From a virus (lineage: Duplodnaviria > Heunggongvirae > Uroviricota > Caudoviricetes): a stretch of DNA of 64,000 nucleotides. Numbering within the stretch: position 1 is the first letter of the stretch; each line of letters starts with the position of its first letter. The position numbers and the translations under genes were made by a program. The notes beneath the pieces are model-generated. The model saw nothing but the letters and a program-made list of their open reading frames with translations. It was not told the DNA's origin and did not search any database. The stretch lies in the IMG/VR virus record IMGVR_UViG_2974695582_000001, positions 46,918 to 110,917 of that record. One strand, 5' to 3'. Shown here in pieces: positions 2,916-51,298 of this stretch.

Positions 2916-5900
2916 TTGTTAGGAGAAAAGGCTTTGGCTTATACAGAACTGCATTTGCACGATTACTATTCAACTCTGGACGGATTGAATTCTCCAGACG
3001 AGTACATGATTCGTGCCAAGGAGTTGGGAATGACCCATCTCGCACAGACAAATCACGGTACCCTGCTTGGTCACCGTGAATTCCAGAAGTCTGCAAAGAA
3101 CGCTGGAATTGTTCCGATTCTCGGTGTTGAGGCGTACATTTCGCCTACCGACCGATTCGACCGACGCGCAAAGAATAAGCGTACTGACGGAACGAACGTG
3201 TACAATCACCTTATCATTCTTGCTCAGGGTGAGACGGGAATGAAGACTCTTCAGACTCTCAATGAGAAGGCGTGGACTGAGGGATTCTATAACAAGCCAC
3301 GTATTGATATGGAGCTTCTTGAAGAGCACAATGATGGCCTTATCATTCTTTCTGGCTGTCTTAACTCGATGCTGTGCAAGGCAATTGAGGCGGGTAACGT
3401 TGAAGAGGCTCACAGGATTGCCCTTGAATTTCGGCGGATTCTTGGTGACAGGTTTTACATTGAAGTTCAGGCTCACAACCCTGTGTATATGAACCAGGCT
3501 CTATTCGAGATTGCTGACAAGAATGGAATCAAGCCTGTTGTTACTTCTGACTGTCACTATGCTCGTAAGGAAGACCTTTGGATTGAAGAGGCTATGCTCA
3601 TTCTGTCTACGAATCCAAAGTTCAGTCGAGACTTTGACTTTACCAAGTCTCAGAAGATGGACATGCTTGAGCGGTTCAATTATCTGTATCCAGACAGGGT
3701 CATGACCTTTGAGGAAATCCAGATTTACCTAAAGTCTGCTGAGGAGCAGCTTACGGATTTCTCAAGGAATGGTTTCGAGCGAGAGGATATTGTCAAGAAT
3801 ACAGAGGAAATTGCTTCTCGAATTGAGGAATACGCTTTCCATCAGAACCTTGACCTTCTTCCTAAGCCTAAGAATGGTAATCCAGACGAGTTGCTAGAAA
3901 AGAAGGCTCGGGCGGGTTTGCGTAATCGTGGTCTGGATAAGGACCCGGTATATGTAGAAAGGCTTGAGGAAGAGCTTGAAATCATCAAGTCAAAGGATTT
4001 CTCGACGTACTTCCTTGTTGTGGCTAATACGATTAAGTGGGCAAAGGACAATGAGATTCTTGTTGGTCCCGGCCGTGGTTCTGGTGCTGGCTCTCTTGTG
4101 AACTATGCTCTTGGAATTACAGAAGTTGACCCGATTAAGTGGGGTCTTCTGTTCTTCCGATTCATTAACCCAGAGCGAAATGACTTCCCTGACATTGATA
4201 CCGACTTTGAGGACCGTAGGCGTAACGAAATCAAGGACTATCTTACGAGAAAGTTCAAGCACGTTGCCTCTATTGCCACGGTTGGTTATTTCAAGGATAA
4301 GGGTGTTGTTCGAGACGCAGCACGAGTGTTCCGAATTGACCCGGCTGAAACAGATGAGGCGTTGAAGACCATCGCCACTTTTGAGGAGTATCAGACTTCA
4401 AAGGCTACTGAGGGGTATCGTAAGAAGTATCCTGAGGTAGAGAAGTTGGCGAATGAGCTTCGTGGTCGTATTCGTCAGACTGGTATGCACGCTGCTGGTA
4501 TTGTTATCTCTAAGGAGCCGATTGCTAACTTTGCTCCGATTGAGACTGCTGCTGACCCAAAGGATAAGACGGCTCCCCGTAGGGCTCTTGTGGCTCTGGA
4601 TATGAATGAGGCTGCTGACCTTGGTCTGATTAAGTTGGATGCACTTGGGCTTAAGACCCTTTCCGTGATGGGTGATGCGGTGAAGATGATTGAGCAGCGT
4701 ACTGGTCGAAAGATTGTCCTGACTGACATTCCTCTTGAGGATAAGAAGGTTTATGACATGATTTCGGCGGGTCACACAAAGGGTATCTTCCAGTGTGAGG
4801 CTGGTCCGTATACAGGACTCATCATGAATATGGGTGGTATCTCCTCCTTCGCTGAACTTGCAGCCTCTAACGCTCTTGTTCGTCCGGGTGCGATGAATAC
4901 CATTGGTGCTGAGTATATCGCTCGAAAGAATGGTGAATCTCCGGTTACGTATCCTCACGAGGATATGAAGTGGTTTACTGAAGAGACTTATGGTGAGATT
5001 CTTTATCAGGAGCAGGTTATGCTTACGATGACCGAACTTGCCGGAATGTCTATGGCAACCGCTGATAAGGTTCGTAAGATTATTGGTAAGAAGAAGGATG
5101 TCAGTGAATTTGAGCAGTACAAGGCTGAATTCGTTGAGGGTGCTTCAAAGAAGGTTTCTAAGGCTGTGGCTGAAAAGCTGTGGCACGACTTTGAGGCTCA
5201 CGCTGGTTACTCCTTTAACAAGAGTCACGCCGTGGCTTATTCCATGATTTCTTACTGGACTGCATGGCTCAAGACGTACTACCCAATTGAGTTCGTTTAC
5301 GCTATGATGAAGAACGAGAACGATAAGGATGTCCGTACCACTTACCTCATTGAGGCTAAGCGAATGGGTGTGAAGGTCAAGTTGCCTCACGTTAACCATT
5401 CCGACCTTGACTTCTCTGTGGAAGAGGATGGTATTCGATTCGGTCTTGCCAACATCAAGTTCATTTCGACCAATCTTGGTACCAAGTTGATTGAGGCTCG
5501 TCCTTATGAAAACTATGCTGCGCTTGAGGCGAAGGTTACTGAGAAGGGCAATGGGCTTAACATCAGGGTTCTCAAGGCTCTGAATGCAATTGGTGCAGCC
5601 ACGTTTGCTGATAATCCTAAGCGAGGAGATGAGCGACACTTCTTCTATGAGTATCTGAGTATTCCCGCTTTCGAAATTCCTGACATGCCTGAGGGTGTTC
5701 GTAATCAGTTCACTCCATTGAGCGCTTTCCGTGAAGATGAAACCAGTATCATTATGGGAATGGTCAAGAATGTGAAGCGTGGAAAGGGATGGTCTCGTAT
5801 TGAAGTTGTTGATGAAACTGGTGAGGCTTCATTCTTCCATAAGGAAGATACTCTGATTGCACCAGGTAATATGTACGCAATGCTGATTGCCAATAAGCGA

Positions 5901-19679: not shown

Positions 19680-20183
19680 ATGAATGACATAATGACACGC
19701 GAGGACCTAATCCTTGCGATTGAGGCTAGAGACGGTTTAGACTGTTTCTTGTGTAAGAAGCCTTTTCTTGAAGGTGAAGAGGTTACTATTGACCACTGGT
19801 ACCCACAGTCTGTAGCATATGCAGAGGGTTGGACGTATGAGCAGGTTAATGACCTTTCTAACCTTAGGAAGGCTCACAGACTCTGCAACACTCAAAAGAG
19901 TGACCTTGTTCCAAATCCTGATGGTACGCTTCCTGAGCGTCCACGCAAGGATAGAACAATCAGGGTGCCTCGTCCAATGTCATGTGATACCTGCATGAAT
20001 GGTAGGATTCTTCTTCTTGGAGAATTCTGTCCGGATTGTAATTCTGGACCACAGCCAGCAAAGTTTCCTAAGACTTTGCAGAAGAGACCAAAGGAGTGTG
20101 ACCACTCAAGGTTCCACTGCTGGATGTGTGTAATTGGACATATCCCTCGCAAGTCTGCAATAGAAGCGATAATTACTGGTTGA
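19680..20183 (+). CDS. HNH endonuclease
   Basis: HNH motif TIDHWYPQS...NLRKAHRLCNTQK, with C-terminal CxxC pairs. Confidence 0.7.
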   Translation: MNDIMTREDLILAIEARDGLDCFLCKKPFLEGEEVTIDHWYPQSVAYAEGWTYEQVNDLSNLRKAHRLCNTQKSDLVPNPDGTLPERPRKDRTIRVPRPMSCDTCMNGRILLLGEFCPDCNSGPQPAKFPKTLQKRPKECDHSRFHCWMCVIGHIPRKSAIEAIITG

Positions 20184-20185
20184 GC

Positions 20186-20213
20186 TTGACACCCCAGTCG
20201 TCAAGTGATAAGG
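20186..20213 (+). promoter_or_regulatory. promoter TTGACAC-N-TGaTAAGGT (extended -10)
   Basis: -35 at 20186-20191. Extended -10 TGATAAGGT. Precedes tRNA-Gln. A near-identical promoter sits at 21168. Confidence 0.45.
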
Positions 20214-20286
20214 TAGTAACACGCCTTAAGGAACCGGCGATAATGTTCCTCGCAGTTACATCTCTGCGACAGCAAAAGATGGCAAT

Positions 20287-20359
20287 GCTCGCTAGCACAA
20301 TTGGCAGTTGCACTCCGCTCTGGACGGAGAGGTTCCAGGTTCGAATCCTGGGCGGGCAG
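20287..20359 (+). tRNA. tRNA-Gln (anticodon CTG)
   Basis: Acceptor tgctcgc/gcgggca. Anticodon stem ctccg/cggag with loop ctctgga. T-arm ccagg-ttcgaat-cctgg. Confidence 0.5.
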
Positions 20360-20387
20360 CAAGGTTGGTGAACCTTAAAATCACTTA

Positions 20388-20458
20388 TGCGTCCGTAGTG
20401 TAGTGGTAGCACACGAGCTTCCAAACCTCTTAGTCCGGGTTCGATTCCTGGCGGGCGT
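20388..20458 (+). tRNA. tRNA-Trp-like (anticodon CCA, weak anticodon stem)
   Basis: Acceptor gcgtccg/cgggcgt. D gtgt-agtggta-gcac. Loop ttccaaa. T-arm ccggg-ttcgatt-cctgg. Confidence 0.4.
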
Positions 20459-20589
20459 GCTTGTAAGGAGGTGTTACGATGAGGCGTATCAAAGCGCTAA
20501 TCAAGACACTAGTTGCTTCTAAGTTGTTCAAGGTAGCCCTTGACAAGTGGAAGCAAAGGAAGTATCGTAGTAATAAGTAAGAACAACGT

Positions 20590-20713
20590 TTTCGGGTCGG
20601 CAGGATGAGGGTTATCTAACCTACTATAAATTACACGCAATGGTAATTCCTGGTGGATTCCAGGGAGTGTGGTGACTATAACACTATCTCCCTCGCCAAT
20701 CACATATCCGAAT
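20590..20713 (+). ncRNA. Y RNA-like ncRNA (Ro60-binding type), locus 1
   Basis: 5' ttCGGGTCGGcaGGATGAGGGTTATCTAACc resembles the hY RNA GGUCCGAUGGUAGUGGGUUAUC motif. 3' cCCTCgccaatcaCATATCCGaat can pair with the 5' end. A TTGACA-N-TAGTAA promoter sits at 20550-20578. Confidence 0.5.
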
Positions 20714-20717
20714 ACAT

Positions 20718-20792
20718 TGGGGTATAGCTCGGTCTGGTGAGAGCACTCCGCTGATAACGGAGCGGTCGTGGGTTCAAATCCCACTGCCCCAA
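20718..20792 (+). tRNA. tRNA-Ile (anticodon GAT)
   Basis: Acceptor tggggta/tgcccca. Anticodon stem ctccg/cggag with loop ctgataa. T-arm gtggg-ttcaaat-cccac. Confidence 0.6.
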
Positions 20793-20793
20793 C

Positions 20794-20897
20794 TTTATGG
20801 GTCGGATGGAAACCTTTATCATAAGTTCAACTCTTATTATTCCCGCTCATGGGAATAGGGCGTGGTGCCCACTGGTTTACTGCAACATACCCATTAT
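20794..20897 (+). ncRNA. Y RNA-like ncRNA, locus 2
   Basis: 5' tttATGGGTCGGATGGaaacctttatca. 3' cATACCCATtat is complementary to the 5' end. Lies between tRNA-Ile and tRNA-Ser. Confidence 0.4.
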
Positions 20898-20984
20898 GGA
20901 AGGTCAATCCGATTGGCGACGGAACTTGTCTTGAAAACAAGCGAGGTGTGAAAGCCCTTAGGAGTTCGACTCTCCTACCTTCCG
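20898..20984 (+). tRNA. tRNA-Ser (anticodon TGA), type II
   Basis: Acceptor ggaaggt/accttcc (perfect). Anticodon stem cttgt/acaag with loop cttgaaa. Long variable arm. T-arm aggag-ttcgact-ctcct. Confidence 0.6.
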
Positions 20985-21167
20985 CTTTACCCTAAGGAGT
21001 AAAATTGACTGAGACAGAAAATGTCGGTCCTTCTTCCTATCAGCTAGCAATCATCCTTGCGCTTCAGAGCAAGCATGTGTATGCTAATACGGTAGATGAG
21101 AATGAGATTGCAAGACGACGTAAGGCAAGCAAGAGGGCGCGACTACAGCGCAGAGTAAATAGAAGGC

Positions 21168-21196
21168 TTGACACGACACGTCGCTCATGATAAGGT
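21168..21196 (+). promoter_or_regulatory. promoter TTGACAC-N17-TGaTAAGGT
   Basis: Same architecture as the 20186 promoter. Precedes tRNA-Asp. Confidence 0.45.
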
Positions 21197-21274
21197 TTTA
21201 ACAGTGCTGAGGGACCGGATGATTTCAGGTAGCACGCTGGTTGGGTATTTCCAGTCCTCACAAAATTCCCACAT

Positions 21275-21351
21275 GCCTCGTGGGGTTGCTAGGTTGTGGC
21301 CACTCCCCTGTCAAGGGAGACATCAGGCGGGTTCGATTCCCGTACGGGGCG
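21275..21351 (+). tRNA. tRNA-Asp (anticodon GTC), atypical D and variable regions
   Basis: Acceptor gcctcgt/acggggc. Anticodon stem ctccc/gggag with loop ctgtcaa. T-arm gcggg-ttcgatt-cccgt. Confidence 0.45.
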
Positions 21352-21376
21352 CTTTCGTAAATGAACAAAAGGAGTT

Positions 21377-21586
21377 ATGCTGATGGCAGCACGAGTTAAG
21401 AAGTTTGACCTTGTTGAGCTTGACAAGGACGGCTGGTTCTCTGCTAAGGTTAGTGGAAAGTTCCGGGGTCTGGTCGAGAAGACTGGACGAAGCAATTACA
21501 CACTTCATCTTGGCAAGGATGATGTAACTAACTTCAAGACTAAGAAGGCTCTTGAGACTTGGCTCACCGAGAAGTGGGCAGTTTAA
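21377..21586 (+). CDS. hypothetical protein
   Basis: 69-aa ORF after AAGGAG SD. Confidence 0.45.
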   Translation: MLMAARVKKFDLVELDKDGWFSAKVSGKFRGLVEKTGRSNYTLHLGKDDVTNFKTKKALETWLTEKWAV

Positions 21587-21610
21587 GTAAAACAACAAAA
21601 TATTGAAAGC

Positions 21611-21683
21611 GTTCGGGTCGGATGCATTCGTTTATCACTCATTGGCGACTAAATAACGATTGCTCTAACATATCCGTGCACAA
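21611..21683 (+). ncRNA. Y RNA-like ncRNA, locus 3 (compact, about 70 nt)
   Basis: 5' gTTCGGGTCGGATGcattcGTTTATCACTCATTGg resembles hY1 GUUAUCUCAAUUG. 3' aaCATATCCGtgcac pairs with the 5' CGGAT. Confidence 0.5.
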
Positions 21684-21687
21684 CTTC

Positions 21688-21849
21688 TAGCCCCTAAAGA
21701 TTTCGGGTCGGATGTTCTTTGGTTAACTCAATTGGAATGAAAAGTTCTGGGTTCGAATCCCAGCGGGTCCACTCTTGGGCCTGTAGTTTAACTGGCAAAA
21801 CTAAAACCCGAGGAACGCTTATATATCCGTGATTATCTTTAGGGGCTAA
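21688..21849 (+). ncRNA. YrlA-like Y RNA with embedded tRNA-like module, locus 4
   Basis: 13-bp terminal stem TAGCCCCTAAAGA/TCTTTAGGGGCTA. Inner TTCGGGTCGGATG...GGTTAACTCAATTGGAATG Y motif. tRNA-like T-arm ctgggttcgaatcccag followed by cgggtcc. 3' partner tATATATCCGtga. Followed by AAGCTT. Confidence 0.55.
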
Positions 21850-21874
21850 GCTTTTGTCTAGAAAAGGAGAGACA

Positions 21875-22060
21875 ATGCCTCGCTACGAAAAGAAGCCCAA
21901 GATTAATGCCAACCTGGTTAAGCGCTATGACGAGGAGTATTACCGAGTGCTTGACGACAACGAAATGATGCTGCTAAAGTGTAAGGGCAATGTTCGGCCT
22001 GAGGGTCGGATGCAGGAAACCAAGACGCATATCATCAGCTATTACATTGAGGTGGATTAA
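21875..22060 (+). CDS. hypothetical protein
   Basis: ATG after AAAAGGAGAG SD. 61 aa. Confidence 0.45.
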   Translation: MPRYEKKPKINANLVKRYDEEYYRVLDDNEMMLLKCKGNVRPEGRMQETKTHIISYYIEVD

Positions 22061-22498: not shown

Positions 22499-24115
22499 AT
22501 GTCTAATGCACTTGGTAAGTACGCCGGTAGCCAGAAGGCTGCAAAGGTTGCGACTCCTCAGACAAAGCGGACTCCGGGCCGTACGGATGAGGTAAAGAAC
22601 AACGCGGGCGGGTTTGTGTTTAAGGTTGACGACAAGTCTCGACTTGAGCGTTTCCTTATCCTTGGTACTGATAAGGGTACCTACTACGTTGGTGAGCAGA
22701 AGTTGACGGCTCAGAACGTTTCTTTCCTGAAGAACCTGGTTCAGAAGGATGAGCGTCTGGTTGTGGACACGCTTGTTGACGTTTCTGTAAATGGTCGTGC
22801 GCTTAAGAATTCTCCTGCGCTGTTCGCTCTGGCCACGGTTATGACGGAGGGCAAGGATAAGGCTTACGCTCGTGAGGCCGTTCAGAAGGTTGCTCGTACT
22901 TCTACCCACCTTTTCGAGTACGCACAGTACATCGATGACCTGGGTGGTTGGGGTCGTGCAAAGCGTCGTTCTGTCGCTGAGTGGTACGAGAACAAGTCTC
23001 TGGATACGCTTGCGTATCAGGCTGTTAAGTACCGTCAGAGGAATGGTTGGACGCACCGTGACCTGTTCCGTCTGTCTCACCCTCAGGGTGTGGACCAGGG
23101 TGTTGGTAACTTCATCCTTGGTAAGGACGCAGAGTCTGAGGTGGAAATTCTTAAGGGCTTCGCTGAGATGCAGTCTGCGACTTCGGTCAAGGACGTTATC
23201 AAGACGCTGGAGACTTTTAAGAACCTTCCGTGGGAGACCATCCCTACTCAGTTCCTCAAGGACGTGAAGGTGTGGAAGACTCTCTTCTACAATGGTCAGC
23301 TTCGTGGCCAGGCTCTCATTCGCAACATCACTCGACTCGCTCGAATTGGTGCGTTTGATGACATGGTTTTCGCAACTGACTACGCGAATGCAATTGCTAA
23401 CCAGGAAATGATTCAGAAGACTCGTCTTCACCCAATCAACTTCCTGAATGCGGTTGTTGTTCATGAGTACGGTCAGATTGACCGTAACGGCTACAGCATG
23501 TGGAGTGCCGGACGTAAGAAGGATTGGAAGTCTAATGGAAAGATTGTGGATGCTCTCAATGAGGGATTCCACATGGCGTTCAAGGCTGTCGAGCCTTCTG
23601 GCAAGAGGACTCTTGTTGCGACTGACGTTTCTGGCTCAATGAGTCAGAGCGCTATCGGACTCGACCTTTCTTGTGCTCAGGTTTCTGCGGCTGTTGCTAT
23701 GACGGTTGCTCGCACCGAGCCTTACAGTGACATTGTTGGCTTCTCTAGCAGCATTGTTGACTTGGGTATTACCGCAAAGAGTTCTTTTGCCGACGCAATG
23801 CGTAAGGTGAGTAACAGGAACTTCGGTGGTACGGATGCGGCTGCTGCAATTAAGTACGCTGACCAGAAGGGAATTCAGGTTGACACCTTCGTCGTTATCA
23901 CTGATAACGAGACGTGGGGCGGAAGCCAGAAGCCTTTCCAGGCACTTAAGCAGTACCGTCAGAAGACCGGAATCGATGCGCGTCTAGCGGTTCTTGGTGT
24001 TGCGTCTACGGACTTCAGCATCGCTGACCCAACTGACCGTGGTATGATGGACTTCGTTGGTTTCGATGCCAATGCGCCAAGGGCTCTTGCAGACTTCAGC
24101 GCTGGTCGTATCTGA
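22499..24115 (+). CDS. rsr: Ro60/TROVE-domain ribonucleoprotein (Rsr ortholog) with C-terminal vWA/MIDAS
   Basis: Direct similarity to the Ro60 TROVE core: RLERFLILGTDKGTYYVGEQKL versus human [22 protein letters not shown], plus PALFALA. vWA MIDAS motif VATDVSGSMS. About 538 aa from ATG 22499. Confidence 0.9.
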   Translation: MSNALGKYAGSQKAAKVATPQTKRTPGRTDEVKNNAGGFVFKVDDKSRLERFLILGTDKGTYYVGEQKLTAQNVSFLKNLVQKDERLVVDTLVDVSVNGRALKNSPALFALATVMTEGKDKAYAREAVQKVARTSTHLFEYAQYIDDLGGWGRAKRRSVAEWYENKSLDTLAYQAVKYRQRNGWTHRDLFRLSHPQGVDQGVGNFILGKDAESEVEILKGFAEMQSATSVKDVIKTLETFKNLPWETIPTQFLKDVKVWKTLFYNGQLRGQALIRNITRLARIGAFDDMVFATDYANAIANQEMIQKTRLHPINFLNAVVVHEYGQIDRNGYSMWSAGRKKDWKSNGKIVDALNEGFHMAFKAVEPSGKRTLVATDVSGSMSQSAIGLDLSCAQVSAAVAMTVARTEPYSDIVGFSSSIVDLGITAKSSFADAMRKVSNRNFGGTDAAAAIKYADQKGIQVDTFVVITDNETWGGSQKPFQALKQYRQKTGIDARLAVLGVASTDFSIADPTDRGMMDFVGFDANAPRALADFSAGRI

Positions 24116-24167: not shown

Positions 24168-25118
24168 ATGTTTATGTACAATGATGTAATGGTAAATTAT
24201 CAGCAAAGAGTTGAGCATGATTATATGGACTTCTATGGAGATAGCTTTATGTCTCCAATGAAGTTGAATACGATGTCTCGTGTGGTCCACATCCTTGAAG
24301 TGAGAAGCTTGGATGTTGAGGTTACAGTCAACTGTGAGACTGGTTACGGCTTTTCTACGGCGGTGGTAATTTCAACGCTACTGGCAGCCCTGAAAAATAT
24401 TGATGATGGCTTCATTTACAATCTAGCTCGTAAGAAGATGGAATCTCAGATGGGGTTTCAGGTTGACGATTTGATTCCTGGCTATGTTGCTAAGCCAACT
24501 GACGTAAGTTACAGTATGGACGGTGGAACGAGTTGGGATTTCACCATTGTTGCTTCTGTATGTCGTGGCCCCATTCAAAAGCCCAATCTGGTTTTGATTA
24601 AGCAAGAGGACAAGTTCGGTGGCCTTGTTTTGAGACTCGAATATTATTCCGGGGTTCACAAGGGATACATCGAAATGGATGTAGATGAAGACATTATGAT
24701 TAATGGAAGTCAAGCCATGCTTCAGCAGGCTCAAGAGCTTCTATGGATTAGGGCATATGAGAAGATGCCTATGCTTGCACCAGACCTTTCCTATATGAGA
24801 TACACTGAAGGTTTGCTAAATGGAGGAAAGTATCATACTGGAAAGTATCAGGCTCCGAAGGCTGACCCTTATTTCTCAGGTCCACTTGCACAACCGGCCA
24901 AAAAGGCGTATGGTGGTAAGGACAAGAGGGTTGATGAATTGCCGGGTGTCAAGGAAATGGTAAAGCATCCTGTAACTGGTAGTCGTGATACCCTGGAGAG
25001 AGTCATCATTAGTTTGAATGACTCATATGATTGGTCAAGAGAAGAAATCGCGGATTGGCTTGAGACTCTTGACATTGATATTACCTTTAAGACTAAGGAG
25101 ATAAATGAACAAGATTGA
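24168..25118 (+). CDS. hypothetical protein
   Basis: 316-aa ORF with AAGGAGAAA SD. Confidence 0.5.
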   Translation: MFMYNDVMVNYQQRVEHDYMDFYGDSFMSPMKLNTMSRVVHILEVRSLDVEVTVNCETGYGFSTAVVISTLLAALKNIDDGFIYNLARKKMESQMGFQVDDLIPGYVAKPTDVSYSMDGGTSWDFTIVASVCRGPIQKPNLVLIKQEDKFGGLVLRLEYYSGVHKGYIEMDVDEDIMINGSQAMLQQAQELLWIRAYEKMPMLAPDLSYMRYTEGLLNGGKYHTGKYQAPKADPYFSGPLAQPAKKAYGGKDKRVDELPGVKEMVKHPVTGSRDTLERVIISLNDSYDWSREEIADWLETLDIDITFKTKEINEQD

Positions 25119-34264: not shown

Positions 34265-34846
34265 ATGATTGGTTTGAGTGCACTGGTTGCTGCTGTTATT
34301 CCGGCAACATTTATGGCTACTGCTGAAGGTGCAACTCCCAAGACGTTGAAGGCTTATACGACTGGGTATTCGTGGTATGATAATACTCCTGCGGGTTCTG
34401 GTGATATCAGCCACCCTGTTCTGCATAGGAAGGCTGGTGGTAAGGGAACATATACCGACCCTGTAACTATTGCGGTTGGTCATTCCATTATTAATGGAAA
34501 GGATATTCTGGATTACCCCAAGGGTACTAAGTTTTATATTCCAAATGTTCGCAAGTATTTCATTGTTGAAGATACTTGCGGGGACGGAAGGACTCCTCAA
34601 AATGGGCCATGTCACAGCTTGACCAAGGCTCCAAAGGGTGTTACAGTATGGCTAGACCTTTGGATTGGTGGTGGGTCTTCTACTCGCAAGCAGGCAGATG
34701 ACTGTATGTCCAAGGTGACAGATGGAAACGGAGCAATCCACACAGCCATCTTGAATCCTCGCAAGGACTATGTTACAGTCAGTGGAGACATTCTTCTCAA
34801 TGGCAAGTGTCGTGCTAGTTACGGAAACACAGCAAAGGTGAGGTAA
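34265..34846 (+). CDS. secreted protein, possible RlpA/3D-domain-like cell-wall binding or hydrolase
   Basis: Signal peptide MIGLSALVAAVIPATFMATAEG. Mature region YTTGYSWYDNTPAGSG...CGDG (DPBB/3D-like). Confidence 0.35.
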   Translation: MIGLSALVAAVIPATFMATAEGATPKTLKAYTTGYSWYDNTPAGSGDISHPVLHRKAGGKGTYTDPVTIAVGHSIINGKDILDYPKGTKFYIPNVRKYFIVEDTCGDGRTPQNGPCHSLTKAPKGVTVWLDLWIGGGSSTRKQADDCMSKVTDGNGAIHTAILNPRKDYVTVSGDILLNGKCRASYGNTAKVR

Positions 34847-50922: not shown

Positions 50923-51086
50923 AGAAGCCAAAGCCACTAGGAAAGGGAAACTACAGAGTTTGCCCTACTTGCGGAGGCCAAGGCGTTAAGGCTAATATGC
51001 GTAAGTATCCAAAGAGTCCAACAAATGATGCTGTCGTTTGGGAAGACTGCAAAACTTGCAAGACTGTTGGTTGGATTGAGGCTTGA
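50919..51086 (+). CDS. DnaJ-type zinc-finger mini-protein
   Basis: ATGA overlap. Contains CPTCGGQG...CKTCKTVG. Confidence 0.45.
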   Translation: MKKPKPLGKGNYRVCPTCGGQGVKANMRKYPKSPTNDAVVWEDCKTCKTVGWIEA

Positions 51087-51112
51087 CAGCCCTGGTCTGA
51101 CTGTGTTACAGT
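51084..51112 (+). promoter_or_regulatory. promoter TTGACA-N17-TACAGT driving a Y RNA plus tRNA-Gly
   Basis: -35 at 51084-51089. -10 at 51107-51112. The Y-RNA motif begins about 10 nt downstream. Confidence 0.45.
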
Positions 51113-51121
51113 AGATATATC

Positions 51122-51224
51122 GGGTCGGACGGATAGGGTTATCTAACAATCAATTGATGATGAGCCTTCGGGCAACCCTGCGGCGGGTATAGCCGCATCT
51201 CCCTTCCTCAACATATCCGATGTA
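51122..51224 (+). ncRNA. Y RNA-like ncRNA, locus 5
   Basis: atCGGGTCGGACGGATAGGGTTATCTAACAATCAATTGATGatgag resembles hY4 GGUCCGAUGGUAGUGGGUUAUC and hY1 ...AAUUGAUUG. Has an internal gcc-ttcg-ggc hairpin. 3' ACATATCCGATG pairs with the 5' TCGGA. Confidence 0.55.
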
Positions 51225-51227
51225 TTT

Positions 51228-51298
51228 GCGGGTGTAGTTTAATGGTAGAACAACAGACTTCCACTCTGTTAGCGGGGGTTCGATTCCCCCTACCCGCT
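51228..51298 (+). tRNA. tRNA-Gly (anticodon TCC)
   Basis: Acceptor gcgggtg/tacccgc. D tagtttaatggtagaac. Anticodon stem acaga/tctgt with loop cttccac. T-arm ggggg-ttcgatt-ccccc. Confidence 0.6.

What the first reader, a model, noticed from the sequence alone, without database searches (positions are those of the whole stretch)
20590..20897. Two Y-RNA-like loci flanking tRNA-Ile, carrying a metazoan-like Ro-binding motif
Locus 1 starts ttCGGGTCGGcaGGATGAGGGTTATCTAAC. Locus 2 starts ATGGGTCGGATGG...TTTATCA. The core GGUC(G/C)GAUG...GGGUUAUC is strikingly close to the conserved 5' strand of human Y RNAs (GGUCCGAUGGUAGUGGGUUAUC). Each locus ends in a complementary 3' strand just before the next tRNA (CATATCCGA or CATACCCAT). 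That predicts the long, bulged terminal stem that Ro60 binds. Locus 1 has its own TTGACA/TAGTAA promoter.
Basis: seen in the sequence. Interest (0 to 1): 0.85.

Follow-up and report, generated by a model that had tools for sequence, protein, structure and literature searches.

The report
Phage Y RNA genes beside Ro60
The two spacers around tRNA-Ile in this Streptomyces phage are very probably genes for Y RNAs, the small RNA partners of the Ro60 protein that the phage encodes 1.6 kb downstream. They are unannotated, but they belong to a system already known from bacteria and mycobacteriophages.

Summary
The window is Streptomyces phage Comrade (cluster BE2). Both described loci exist exactly as written. 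They are two of five same-strand loci in the window that share one architecture. The 5' strand reads YGGGUCG-N8-13-UUAUC, the 3' strand reads AYAYCC, and the two ends pair into a closing helix. A scan for this architecture gives 5 hits against 0.045 expected. A Ro60 ortholog (TROVE + vWA_Ro60) lies 1.6 kb downstream on the same strand. One sister locus (21704-21829) carries a T arm, an acceptor-like hairpin and a D arm. It matches Rfam YrlA at 28 bits, about what the mycobacteriophage Bxz1 YrlA-type locus scores (32.5). Across 43 distinct copies from 11 phages the closing helix covaries (C-G 28, U-A 15, none unpaired). BillNye, a relative with no detected Ro60 gene, has no such loci. Actinobacterial YrlA RNAs carry the same 5' strand (GGGCCGGAG...UCGGUUAYC), so the motif is the general Y RNA motif and not a specifically metazoan one. 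Rfam Y_RNA gives no hit. Locus 2 is a Comrade-specific hybrid left by a 299-bp deletion between two Y genes. Verdict: the finding is real, and these are new, unannotated members of a known kind. Expression and Ro60 binding are untested.

The parts
20540..20568 (+). Promoter-like site TTGACA-17 nt-TATCGT upstream of Ya. It lies inside a conserved 33-codon ORF (20479-20580).
   Evidence: One search gives 10 of 12 matches. Phages with Ya have TTGACA or TTGATA here; the Ro-less BillNye and Wakanda have TTGCCA. Function is not shown.
20591..20712 (+). Ya, locus 1 of the finding: a Y-like RNA gene without a tRNA-like module. The closing helix pairs 20591-20597 with 20706-20712. The 5' strand is GGGUCGGCAGGAUGAGGGUUAUC and the 3' strand is CACAUAUCC.
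   Evidence: The ortholog and paralog alignment keeps an 8-bp closing helix and an AGGG/CCCU upper helix, with compensatory pairs.
20718..20793 (+). tRNA-Ile(GAT). Its 5' end lies 5 nt after the Ya helix and its 3' end lies 3 nt before the Yd' helix. No CCA is encoded.
   Evidence: 66.5 bits; sequence.
20797..20894 (+). Yd', locus 2 of the finding: a Y-like RNA gene with a closing helix (20797-20802 with 20889-20894), an upper helix and three hairpins. It is a hybrid. The 5' flank comes from Yb, the body comes from Yd, and the junction is TGGGTCGGAT at 20798-20807.
   Evidence: Belfort keeps Yb and Yc, 299 bp more. In one search, 14 relatives (15 records; Gilson is listed twice) have the longer spacer. 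In one search, 96.6% of cells are paired and 4 pairs carry compensatory changes.
20898..20985 (+). tRNA-Ser(TGA), which starts 3 nt after the Yd' helix.
21614..21676 (+). Ye: a short Y-like RNA gene (GGGUCGGAUGCAUUCGUUUAUC ... AACAUAUCCG).
21688..21701 (+). 5' arm of a 14-bp outer helix that encloses Yf (TAGCCCCTAAAGAT).
   Evidence: a perfect 14-15 bp complement in 8 phages, with compensatory changes. The stem sequence equals that of the simple terminator hairpin at this site in BillNye and Wakanda; z = -3.69.
21704..21829 (+). Yf: a YrlA-type Y RNA gene with the same 5' and 3' strands plus a T arm, an acceptor-like hairpin and a D arm (the tRNA-like module is at 21742-21802).
   Evidence: RF02553, 28.2 bits, E=3e-4; gathering score 69; fold.
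21835..21848 (+). 3' arm of the outer helix (ATCTTTAGGGGCTA), followed by AAGCTTTTGT.
22499..24115 (+). Ro60 ortholog (Comrade gp103, 538 aa).
   Evidence: annotated as a Ro-like RNA-binding protein; vWA_Ro60 3.2e-56, TROVE 2.6e-38; D. radiodurans Rsr 2NVO 2e-99, X. laevis Ro60 1YVP 1.3e-88, human RO60 9NEN 9.6e-88.
51083..51112 (+). Promoter-like TTGACA-18 nt-TACAGT, placed so that a transcript would start at about the first base of Yg.
   Evidence: Read directly. A similarly placed TTGACA element precedes tRNA-Gly in BillNye, which has no Yg.
51118..51222 (+). Yg: a fifth Y-like RNA gene, ending 5 nt before tRNA-Gly(TCC) at 51228. It is a paralog of the Ya of phage Faust.

Best explanation
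Loci 1 and 2 are genes for phage-encoded Y RNAs, the small non-coding RNAs that bind the phage's own Ro60 protein (gp103, window 22499-24115). They belong to a family of five such genes in Comrade and seven in most close relatives.

Every member has the same Ro-binding module. The 5' and 3' ends pair (N-N-Y-G-G-G-U with A-Y-C-C-R-N-N). An internal loop follows, made of the invariant 5' CG and the conserved 3' A-Y-A. Then comes an upper helix that ends at GGUUAUC. The apical module differs between members. Yb and Yf carry a tRNA-like T/acceptor/D module (YrlA type). Ya, Yd, Ye and Yg carry other hairpins, comparable to Salmonella YrlB.

Shown here by computation: the shared motif, covariation in the helix, linkage to Ro60 on the same strand, and co-occurrence with Ro60 across phages.

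Inferred:
- The RNAs are transcribed together with the tRNA array from sigma-70-like promoters.
- Their ends are set largely by tRNA processing. RNase P would cut at the 5' end of tRNA-Ile and tRNA-Ser, giving the 3' ends of Ya and Yd'. RNase Z-type cutting behind tRNA-Ile would give the 5' end of Yd'.
- Ro60 binds the GGGUCG/AYAYCC helix on its outer surface.
- By analogy with D. radiodurans, Salmonella and Thermus phage phiLo, the apical modules gate Ro60 or tether it to a partner such as host PNPase, directing decay or quality control of structured RNA during infection.
For: (1) A Ro60 gene lies 1.6-1.9 kb downstream on the same strand. Chen et al. 2014 found that nearly all of the best-matching YrlA candidates lie within 4 kb of Ro60 on the same strand.

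(2) The same 5' and 3' strands occur on sister loci with a full tRNA-like module. Yf in the window scores 28.2 bits on RF02553 and Belfort Yb scores 29.5 bits. The Yb loci of Faust, Blueeyedbeauty and Gilson score 30.8-36.5 bits. The Bxz1 YrlA-type locus scores 32.5 bits; Bxz1 belongs to the mycobacteriophage group for which Chen et al. reported YrlA.

(3) Motif enrichment: 6 hits against 0.31 expected. The full architecture gives 5 hits against 0.045 expected, all on the strand that carries Ro60 and all 32 tRNA/tmRNA genes.

(4) Of 56 copies in 11 phages, 43 have distinct cores. GGGUCG and A.A.CC are invariant. The pair next to GGG/CC is C-G in 28 copies and U-A in 15, and is never unpaired. 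The next pair is U-A 13, G-C 9, A-U 6. For both percent paired and covariation score, 0 of 500 shuffles reach the observed value, and the slid controls are much lower.

(5) Yd orthologs: 96.6% of cells paired, with 4 compensatory pairs. Ya/Yg orthologs show a conserved long-range helix with compensatory pairs.

(6) BillNye has no Ro60 (tblastn over 108 of its 127 kb) and no intergenic Y locus, and its tRNA-Ile and tRNA-Ser are 3 nt apart. Wakanda is the same in the 9-kb syntenic stretch.

(7) Actinobacterial rsr loci carry YrlA RNAs whose 5' strand is GGGCCGGAGA...UCGGUUAYC at the same spacing. Bxz1, Trina and Jay2Jay show related motifs.

(8) No plausible ORF covers the loci.
Against: - There are no expression or binding data.
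- No Rfam family hits loci 1 or 2, not even Y_RNA or YrlA at E<=10.
- Loci 1 and 2 lack the tRNA-like domain that defines YrlA.
- Single-sequence folding energies are not better than shuffles (z -1.1 to -1.6).
- A 27-nt profile of bacterial YrlA 5' strands does not retrieve the loci significantly (best E=6.7; Ye reaches E=14).
- The motif departs from the published GNCGAAN0-1G by 1-2 bases.
- Annadreamy keeps four intact Y loci although it has lost Ro60.
- Comrade has lost two Y genes and is still viable.
- In the covariation test, where several 3' motifs were available I picked the one giving the most leader pairs. This favours pairing in the outer columns. It does not affect the C-G/U-A column, which sits next to the fixed motif.
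- Co-occurrence with Ro60 is confounded by phylogeny.
Confidence: 0.8

Rival explanations
1. Loci 1 and 2 are decayed, non-functional relics of YrlA-type genes. They keep the end motifs but have lost the tRNA-like module and no longer serve Ro60.
For: They lack T and D arms. Locus 2 in Comrade is a product of an accidental deletion. Comrade tolerates the loss of Yb and Yc. Copy number and position vary between phages.
Against: The apical hairpins of Yd and Ya are kept by compensatory changes. The end motifs are invariant in all 56 copies. Non-tRNA-like Y RNAs that do bind Ro60 are known, such as YrlB. Bxz1 also has two short copies beside its YrlA.
Confidence: 0.09
2. They are spacer structures that serve processing or stability of the tRNA array (leader and trailer hairpins, nuclease entry sites) and have no relation to Ro60.
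For: They sit within 3-5 nt of tRNA ends. Jay2Jay and Trina show the same juxtaposition.
Against: BillNye and Wakanda have the same tRNA-Ile and tRNA-Ser genes 3 nt apart with no such spacer. Ye and Yf are not next to any tRNA. The same motif is fused to YrlA modules and is linked to Ro60 in bacteria that have no tRNA array at the locus.
Confidence: 0.06
3. They are copies of a small mobile or recombinogenic DNA repeat (MITE-like, with terminal inverted repeats) that spreads among tRNA-flanking sites.
For: The distribution is patchy (Yg in only some Gilsonviruses; Yd only in Gilsonvirus). The ends are complementary. The repeat has mediated a deletion.
Against: All 56 copies face the transcribed strand. 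Interiors are unrelated between paralogs, and only the Ro-type module is shared. Compensatory changes point to selection at the RNA level.
Confidence: 0.04
4. The resemblance of two AT-rich spacers to Y RNA is due to chance.
For: The motifs are short, there is no Rfam hit, and the folding z-scores are weak.
Against: 5 hits against 0.045 expected, plus covariation, Ro60 linkage and conservation across 11 phages.
Confidence: 0.01

Closest known systems
Bacterial and mycobacteriophage YrlA RNAs (Rfam RF02553; Chen et al. 2014, PMC4201824)
   Same: Encoded within 4 kb of a Ro60 ortholog on the same strand. A stem is formed by the 5' and 3' ends. The 5' motif is G-N-C-G-R followed by the conserved YUAY (here UUAUC). 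Several copies per locus. The sister loci Yf (in the window) and Yb (in relatives) have the T arm, acceptor-like hairpin and D arm.
   Different: Loci 1 and 2 have no tRNA-like module and do not hit RF02553. The motif is GGGUCGG(A/C), not GNCGAA. The 3' strand (AYAYCC) is conserved as well, whereas Chen et al. could recognise only the 5' strand in Salmonella and M. smegmatis. The genes are interleaved with a tRNA array.
Ro60-bound Y RNAs without a tRNA-like module (S. Typhimurium YrlB)
   Same: A second, shorter Y RNA encoded beside YrlA and Ro60 that shares only the Ro-binding 5' motif.
   Different: No sequence homology was tested or is expected. YrlB is known only in S. enterica serovars. 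The apical modules here are different (three hairpins in Yd; a long-range helix plus two hairpins in Ya).
Metazoan Y RNAs (human Y4; Rfam RF00019)
   Same: The 5' strand is GGUC(C/G)GAUGG...GGGUUAUC with the same spacing (9 of 10 and 16 of 22 identities). The overall plan is lower stem, internal loop, upper stem, loop.
   Different: No RF00019 hit at E<=10. The pairing register differs: GGGU pairs with AYCC, where vertebrates pair GGUC with GACU by my recollection of the vertebrate helix. There is no 3' oligo-U tail. The similarity is no greater than to actinobacterial YrlA 5' strands (15 of 22 for Ye against L019, hand count).
Thermus phage phiLo Yrl1/Yrl2 with phiRo60 (PMC12135203)
   Same: Phage-encoded Ro60 with two Y-like RNAs upstream. 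They have a 5'-3' stem flanking a bulge that carries a CGAA-type motif. Binding to the phage Ro60 and assembly with host PNPase were shown in vitro.
   Different: A different phage lineage and host. The sequences were not compared here. In Comrade nothing has been tested experimentally.

Membership tests
Metazoan Y RNA (Rfam RF00019) | Covariance-model score at or above the gathering score | tested here: not met
   No RF00019 match even at E<=10 in 20460-21000 or 21580-21880, and none at gathering level in the whole window.
Metazoan Y RNA (Rfam RF00019) | Conserved 5' strand GGUCCGA in a bulged helix with a conserved 3' strand | tested here: inconclusive
   The 5' strand is GGUCGGA or GGUCGGC (1-2 mismatches). 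A helix with an internal loop is predicted and covaries. The pairing register and the 3' strand (AYAYCC) differ from the vertebrate form.
Metazoan Y RNA (Rfam RF00019) | 3' oligo-U tail (RNA polymerase III terminator, La binding) | tested here: not met
   The 3' ends abut tRNA genes (...GAAUACAU|tRNA-Ile...CAUUAU|tRNA-Ser) and have no U run.
Bacterial/phage YrlA (Rfam RF02553) | Encoded within about 4 kb of a Ro60 ortholog, on the same strand | tested here: met
   Ya lies 1.9 kb and Yd' 1.6 kb upstream of gp103 on the + strand. The criterion is from Chen et al. 2014.
Bacterial/phage YrlA (Rfam RF02553) | 5' motif GNCGAAN0-1G and the conserved YUAY | tested here: inconclusive
   GUCGGAUG has one mismatch and GUCGGCAG has two. 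YUAY is present as UUAU in both loci. Jay2Jay and Sham copies read GUCGAAAG, an exact match.
Bacterial/phage YrlA (Rfam RF02553) | tRNA-like domain: T arm, acceptor-like hairpin, D arm | tested here: not met
   Loci 1 and 2 have no GGUUCGA T loop, no D arm and no RF02553 match at E<=10. The feature is met by the sister locus Yf at 21742-21802 (28.2 bits) and by Yb in relatives.
Bacterial/phage YrlA (Rfam RF02553) | Covariance-model score at or above the gathering score (69 bits) | tested here: not met
   No copy reaches it; the best is 36.5 bits. The Bxz1 YrlA-type locus also reaches only 32.5 bits, so this threshold is not informative for phage sequences.
Y RNA in the functional sense (Ro60-bound ncRNA) | Terminal stem formed by the 5' and 3' ends, kept by covariation, and a motif shared with co-resident YrlA-type RNAs | tested here: met
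   (C-G 28, U-A 15, 0 unpaired; 0 of 500 shuffles).
Y RNA in the functional sense (Ro60-bound ncRNA) | Present where Ro60 is present, absent where it is absent | tested here: inconclusive
   All 10 Ro60-positive Streptomyces phages examined have 1-7 copies. The Ro60-negative BillNye (108 kb scanned) and Wakanda (9 kb scanned) have none. Annadreamy has lost Ro60 but keeps four intact copies, with Yf truncated at the deletion. The sample is small and phylogenetically structured.
Y RNA in the functional sense (Ro60-bound ncRNA) | Expressed as a discrete small RNA and physically bound by Ro60 | not testable with these tools
   No transcriptome or binding data are available. This needs RNA-seq or Northern blots and a gp103 pull-down.

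The most novel reading that the evidence does not exclude
The phage carries a toolkit of five to seven Y RNAs. They share one Ro60-binding handle but have unrelated apical modules: tRNA-like, three-hairpin, long-range helix. Each would direct the single phage Ro60 to a different partner or RNA target during infection. New specificities would arise by recombination within the 10-nt handle itself, as the Comrade Yb/Yd hybrid shows. On this reading Ro60 is a programmable, RNA-guided platform in a virus.
Probability: 0.2. Interest if true: 0.7.

Novelty: new member of a known kind. Interest (0 to 1): 0.45.

Why it matters
Ro60 genes are annotated in 359 phage records of the collection, 115 of them Streptomyces phages. 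In the records examined here their RNA partners are not annotated, and Rfam does not detect them at its thresholds.

This locus gives a compact rule for finding them in BE-cluster phages: YGGGUCG-N8-13-UUAUC ... AYAYCC with complementary ends. It also shows an unusually large and modular Y RNA family, most of it without the tRNA-like domain.

It offers natural experiments. Comrade lacks Yb and Yc compared with Belfort. Annadreamy lacks Ro60 but keeps Y RNAs. BillNye lacks both. The host-phage pair is tractable, so the still unclear question of what the apical modules of bacterial Y RNAs do could be studied here. The tight interleaving with tRNA genes suggests that Y RNA ends are made by the tRNA-processing machinery, and this is directly testable.

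Tried and rejected
1. I do not count this as refutation. That model covers metazoan sequences, and even the Bxz1 YrlA-type locus reaches only half the gathering score of the bacterial model.

2. A sequence profile (nhmmer) built from 58 actinobacterial YrlA 5' strands and run on the window: no significant hit (best E=6.7; Ye at E=14, Yg at E=35). The profile is too short and too GC-rich to be informative.

3. Single-sequence folding significance: z -1.1 to -1.6 for all five loci, so no support on its own. Only Yf with its outer helix stands out (z -3.69).

4. RNAalifold on the Yd orthologs preferred a local hairpin (GAUGGA/UUUAUC) over the long-range upper helix. The long-range helix has a compensatory C-G to G-C change and was used. 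The two are alternatives, and six sequences cannot settle it.

5. Pfam on the genes flanking Ro60 (gp101, gp102, gp104, gp105), looking for a partner nuclease: nothing informative.

6. Two reviews on bacterial Y RNAs (PMC10870794, PMC6047535) are not held.

7. The paper on human sweat vesicles that mentions both Streptomyces phages and Y RNA is unrelated to this question.

8. Other motif hits were treated as chance: 34439-34461 (- strand) lies antisense inside a 207-codon ORF, and GGGTCGGATG at 22003 lies inside the gp101 coding sequence.
Full report
**Identity of the window.** Bases 20000-22000 are 100% identical to Streptomyces phage Comrade (NC_048728.1, 66917-68917). Window position therefore equals record position minus 46917. 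Comrade is a 129-kb siphovirus of genus Gilsonvirus; its close relatives belong to actinobacteriophage cluster BE2. The window holds 31 tRNA genes and a tmRNA gene, all on the + strand. In the GenBank record the two loci of the finding are unannotated spacers between tRNA-Trp, tRNA-Ile and tRNA-Ser.

**The observation.** In the minimum-energy folds the ends pair: 20591-20597 with 20706-20712, and 20797-20802 with 20889-20894. Neither fold is significantly more stable than shuffled sequence (z about -1.6). Locus 2 matches GGUCCGAUGG at 9 of 10 positions. Locus 1 matches the 22 nt from GGUC to UUAUC at 16 of 22 positions without gaps. The named promoter needs a correction: TTGACA at 20540 is followed at the canonical 17 nt by TATCGT, not TAGTAA. 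It also lies inside a small conserved ORF.

**What surrounds it.** A 538-residue Ro60 ortholog lies at 22499-24115 on the same strand, 1.6 kb downstream of locus 2. It is annotated as a 'Ro-like RNA binding protein'. It matches Pfam vWA_Ro60 (3.2e-56) and TROVE (2.6e-38). It also matches the solved structures of D. radiodurans Rsr (2e-99), Xenopus Ro60 and human RO60. In bacteria, the best YrlA candidates lie within 4 kb of Ro60 on the same strand (Chen et al. 2014).

**More copies.** The 5' pattern GGGTCG-N8-13-TTAHC occurs six times in the window against 0.31 expected. I then required a 3' AYAYCY motif and complementary flanks as well. This leaves exactly five hits, all on the + strand, against 0.045 in shuffles:
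- Ya, 20591-20712 (locus 1)
- Yd', 20797-20894 (locus 2)
- Ye, 21614-21676
- Yf, 21704-21829
- Yg, 51118-51222

Yf is decisive for the interpretation. Between the same 5' and 3' strands it carries a T arm (CUGGGUUCGAAUCCCAG), an acceptor-like hairpin and a D arm (UAGUUUAACUGGCAAAACUA). These match Rfam YrlA at 28.2 bits, E=3e-4. That is below the gathering score of 69. However, the YrlA-type locus of mycobacteriophage Bxz1 scores only 32.5 bits, and Bxz1 belongs to the phage group in which Chen et al. reported YrlA.

**Relatives.** Fourteen close relatives (Belfort, Stigma, SparkleGoddess, Karp, Moab, Patelgo, Gilson and others; 15 records) carry about 200-300 extra bases between tRNA-Ile and tRNA-Ser. 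In Belfort the extra DNA is two further genes of the same kind. Yb is a full YrlA-type RNA (29.5 bits on RF02553). Yc has a T-arm-like hairpin.

Comrade's junction TGGGTCGGAT (20798-20807) is the 10-nt stretch shared by the starts of Yb and Yd. Locus 2 is therefore a hybrid made by a 299-bp deletion between two Ro-binding motifs. It has the 5' flank of Yb and the body of Yd.

The more distant Ro60-positive phages Blueeyedbeauty, Faust and Sham have Ya, Yb, Yc, Ye and Yf at the same three sites. Jay2Jay (Ro60 59% identical) has one copy directly behind a tRNA-Asp.

**No Ro60, no Y loci.** BillNye and Wakanda have no Ro60 gene in the syntenic region. There, tRNA-Ile and tRNA-Ser are 3 nt apart, the spacer before tRNA-Ile has no motif, and the Ye/Yf site holds only a simple terminator hairpin. 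I read 108 of BillNye's 127 kb. tblastn finds no Ro60. The only strict motif hit lies inside the thioredoxin coding sequence. The site before tRNA-Gly(TCC) has a similarly placed TTGACA promoter-like element but no Yg.

Annadreamy is an instructive exception. Ro60 is missing (no hit in the 9-kb stretch, and it is absent from the ranked tblastn list where its sister Blueeyedbeauty appears). Yf is cut off after its T arm. Ya, Yb, Yc and Ye remain intact. This looks like a recent deletion.

**Structure.** I took 56 copies from 11 phages and joined 14 nt of each 5' end to 13 nt of each 3' end, which gave 43 distinct cores.
- GGGUCG and A.A.CC are invariant.
- GGGU pairs with AYCC.
- The next pair outward is C-G in 28 cores and U-A in 15, and is never unpaired.
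- The pair after that is U-A 13, G-C 9, A-U 6, and unpaired in the 15 copies with short helices.

Percent paired and covariation score exceed all 500 shuffles and all slid controls. One caveat applies. Where several 3' motifs were available I kept the one with the most flank pairs. This favours the outer columns but not the C-G/U-A column.

Six Yd orthologs support a closing helix, a 7-bp upper helix (one C-G to G-C exchange) and three hairpins. In that alignment 96.6% of cells are paired and four pairs carry compensatory changes. Ya, its Faust and Sham orthologs and Yg share an 8-bp closing helix and a long-range AGGG/CCCU helix, with compensatory pairs between them.

**Is the motif 'metazoan-like'?** I fetched 80 rsr loci from bacterial genomes, mostly Actinomycetes, and found 88 T-arm/acceptor/D-arm modules in 60 of them. 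Their 5' strands read GGGCCG(G/A)(A/C)GA...UCGGUUA(C/U)C, with the same distance from GGG to UUA as in the phage. Bxz1 has three Y-like loci with GGCCGA...UCGGUUAYC. Trina has several with GARCCG...UCGKUUAUC. Chen et al. describe the same two elements as GNCGAAN0-1G and a conserved YUAY, and note the likeness to vertebrate GGUCCGA.

Identity to an actinobacterial YrlA (15 of 22 for Ye) is about the same as identity to human Y4 (16 of 22 for Ya). One feature is unusual. The 3' strand is also strongly conserved here, whereas Chen et al. could recognise only the 5' strand in Salmonella and M. smegmatis RNAs.

**Mechanism.** Three steps are shown by others:
- Y RNAs bind Ro60 through the stem formed by their ends.
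- In D. radiodurans and Salmonella they tether Ro60 to PNPase.
- In Thermus phage phiLo, two phage Y-like RNAs bind the phage Ro60 and assemble with host PNPase in vitro.

The rest is inferred for Comrade. Ya and Yd' bind gp103 through the GGGUCG/AYAYCC helix, and their distinct apical modules gate or tether it.

The positions suggest how the RNAs are made. Ya ends 5 nt before tRNA-Ile. Yd' begins 3 nt after tRNA-Ile and ends 3 nt before tRNA-Ser. Yg ends 5 nt before tRNA-Gly and starts at about the predicted start site of a TTGACA-18-TACAGT promoter. RNase P and a 3' tRNA endonuclease would therefore release them from the array transcript; tRNA-Ile encodes no CCA. None of this has been tested.

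**Yf and the terminator.** Yf sits inside a 14-15-bp perfect outer helix (21688-21701 with 21835-21848). The helix is kept in eight phages through several compensatory changes. Its sequence equals that of the terminator stem at the same site in BillNye and Wakanda (AGCCCCTAA...TTAGGGGCT). With this helix the fold stands out from shuffles (z = -3.69). The helix may be an RNase III site, a remnant terminator, or both.

[quoted passage not shown] The phiLo work adds another phage. I found no paper on Y RNAs of Streptomyces phages. BE2 genome reports mention only the Ro-like protein, and none of the GenBank records examined here annotates these RNAs. Rfam does not reach threshold on any of them.

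I file the finding as new members of a known kind. The points of interest are:
- the size of the family (five to seven genes);
- the predominance of copies without a tRNA-like domain;
- the interleaving with tRNA genes;
- conservation of both strands of the handle;
- the evidence that the handle itself mediates recombination.

Interest is moderate at 0.45. A specialist would expect Y RNAs here, but would value the modular family and the natural deletion variants.

Noticed in passing
window 21688-21701 and 21835-21848: Yf is nested in a perfect 14-bp helix. The stem sequence equals the simple intrinsic-terminator hairpin at the same site in the Ro60-less phages BillNye and Wakanda. The helix covaries in eight phages. 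It looks as if a Y RNA gene sits in the loop of a terminator.
   Followed up: partly
window 20798-20807 (junction); Belfort L002 1295-1598: Comrade alone lacks 299 bp that 14 relatives have. The deletion lies between the identical TGGGTCGGAT starts of Yb and Yd. It removes a YrlA-type gene and Yc and creates a hybrid Y gene.
   Followed up: yes
window 20479-20580: A 33-codon ORF (MRRIKALIKTLVASKLFKVALDKWKQRKYRSNK) with a strong Shine-Dalgarno sequence (AAGGAGGTG). It is annotated in Belfort and Faust but not in Comrade, and is conserved at the protein level even in BillNye and Wakanda. The putative Ya promoter lies inside it.
   Followed up: partly
window 20186-20214 and 21168-21196: Two near-identical promoter-like sites, TTGACA-17 nt-TAAGGT, upstream of tRNA-Gln and tRNA-Asp. 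They are possibly the promoters of the tRNA/Y RNA array transcripts. The consensus scan did not list them because the second hexamer is atypical.
   Followed up: no
L009 (Faust) 4039-4194; similar sequence in Annadreamy L007 about 4086-4260: A match to the manA RNA motif (RF01745, 46.3 bits, E=1e-8, gathering score 55.2) between tRNA-Gln and a degenerate tRNA-Trp. Comrade has no counterpart; its tRNA-Gln and tRNA-Trp are 28 nt apart.
   Followed up: no
L007 (Annadreamy) 5676-5858: Annadreamy has lost Ro60, the neighbouring genes and the 3' half of Yf, but keeps Ya, Yb, Yc and Ye intact. This is either a very recent loss or a sign that the Y RNAs can act without the phage Ro60, for example with a host Rsr.
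   Followed up: partly
L015 (Bxz1) 4564-4636, 4662-4806, 4839-4910: Mycobacteriophage Bxz1 has three Y-like loci directly upstream of its Ro60 gene: one YrlA-type and two short ones. All have GGCCGA...UCGGUUAYC at the 5' end and CAYNAUGUCU at the 3' end. None is annotated in the record.
   Followed up: partly
L014 (Trina) 1402-1500, 3649-3800, 4300-4400, 4540-4960: Rhodococcus phage Trina has several Y-like loci (GARCCG...UCGKUUAUC ... AACAUGUUC), often directly behind tRNA genes. One region is annotated as a 209-nt pseudo 'tRNA-OTHER'.
   Followed up: no
L016 (contig CAINGU010000031.1, labelled as an uncultured cyanobacterium MAG): A 110-kb contig with a Ro60 62% identical to Comrade's, many tRNA genes and Y-like loci (CGAGUCGGCAGACUUUCGGUUAUC). 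It is probably a phage genome binned into a bacterial MAG.
   Followed up: no
window 22003-22035: GGGTCGGATG...CATATCATC occurs inside the gp101 coding sequence. The GGTCGG scan found no counterpart in Moab. It is probably chance or a fragment.
   Followed up: partly
window 24168-25118: A 316-codon gene with no Pfam match follows Ro60 in all eight Ro60-positive Streptomyces phages for which I read the downstream annotation (Comrade, Moab, Gilson, Francob, Phredrick, Blueeyedbeauty, Faust, Sham). It could be a partner of the Ro60/Y RNA particle.
   Followed up: partly
window 20898-20983: Rfam labels tRNA-Ser(TGA) as tRNA-Sec (47.1 bits, exactly at threshold). ARAGORN calls it an ordinary long-arm tRNA-Ser, so the Sec label is an artefact of clan competition.
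   Followed up: no
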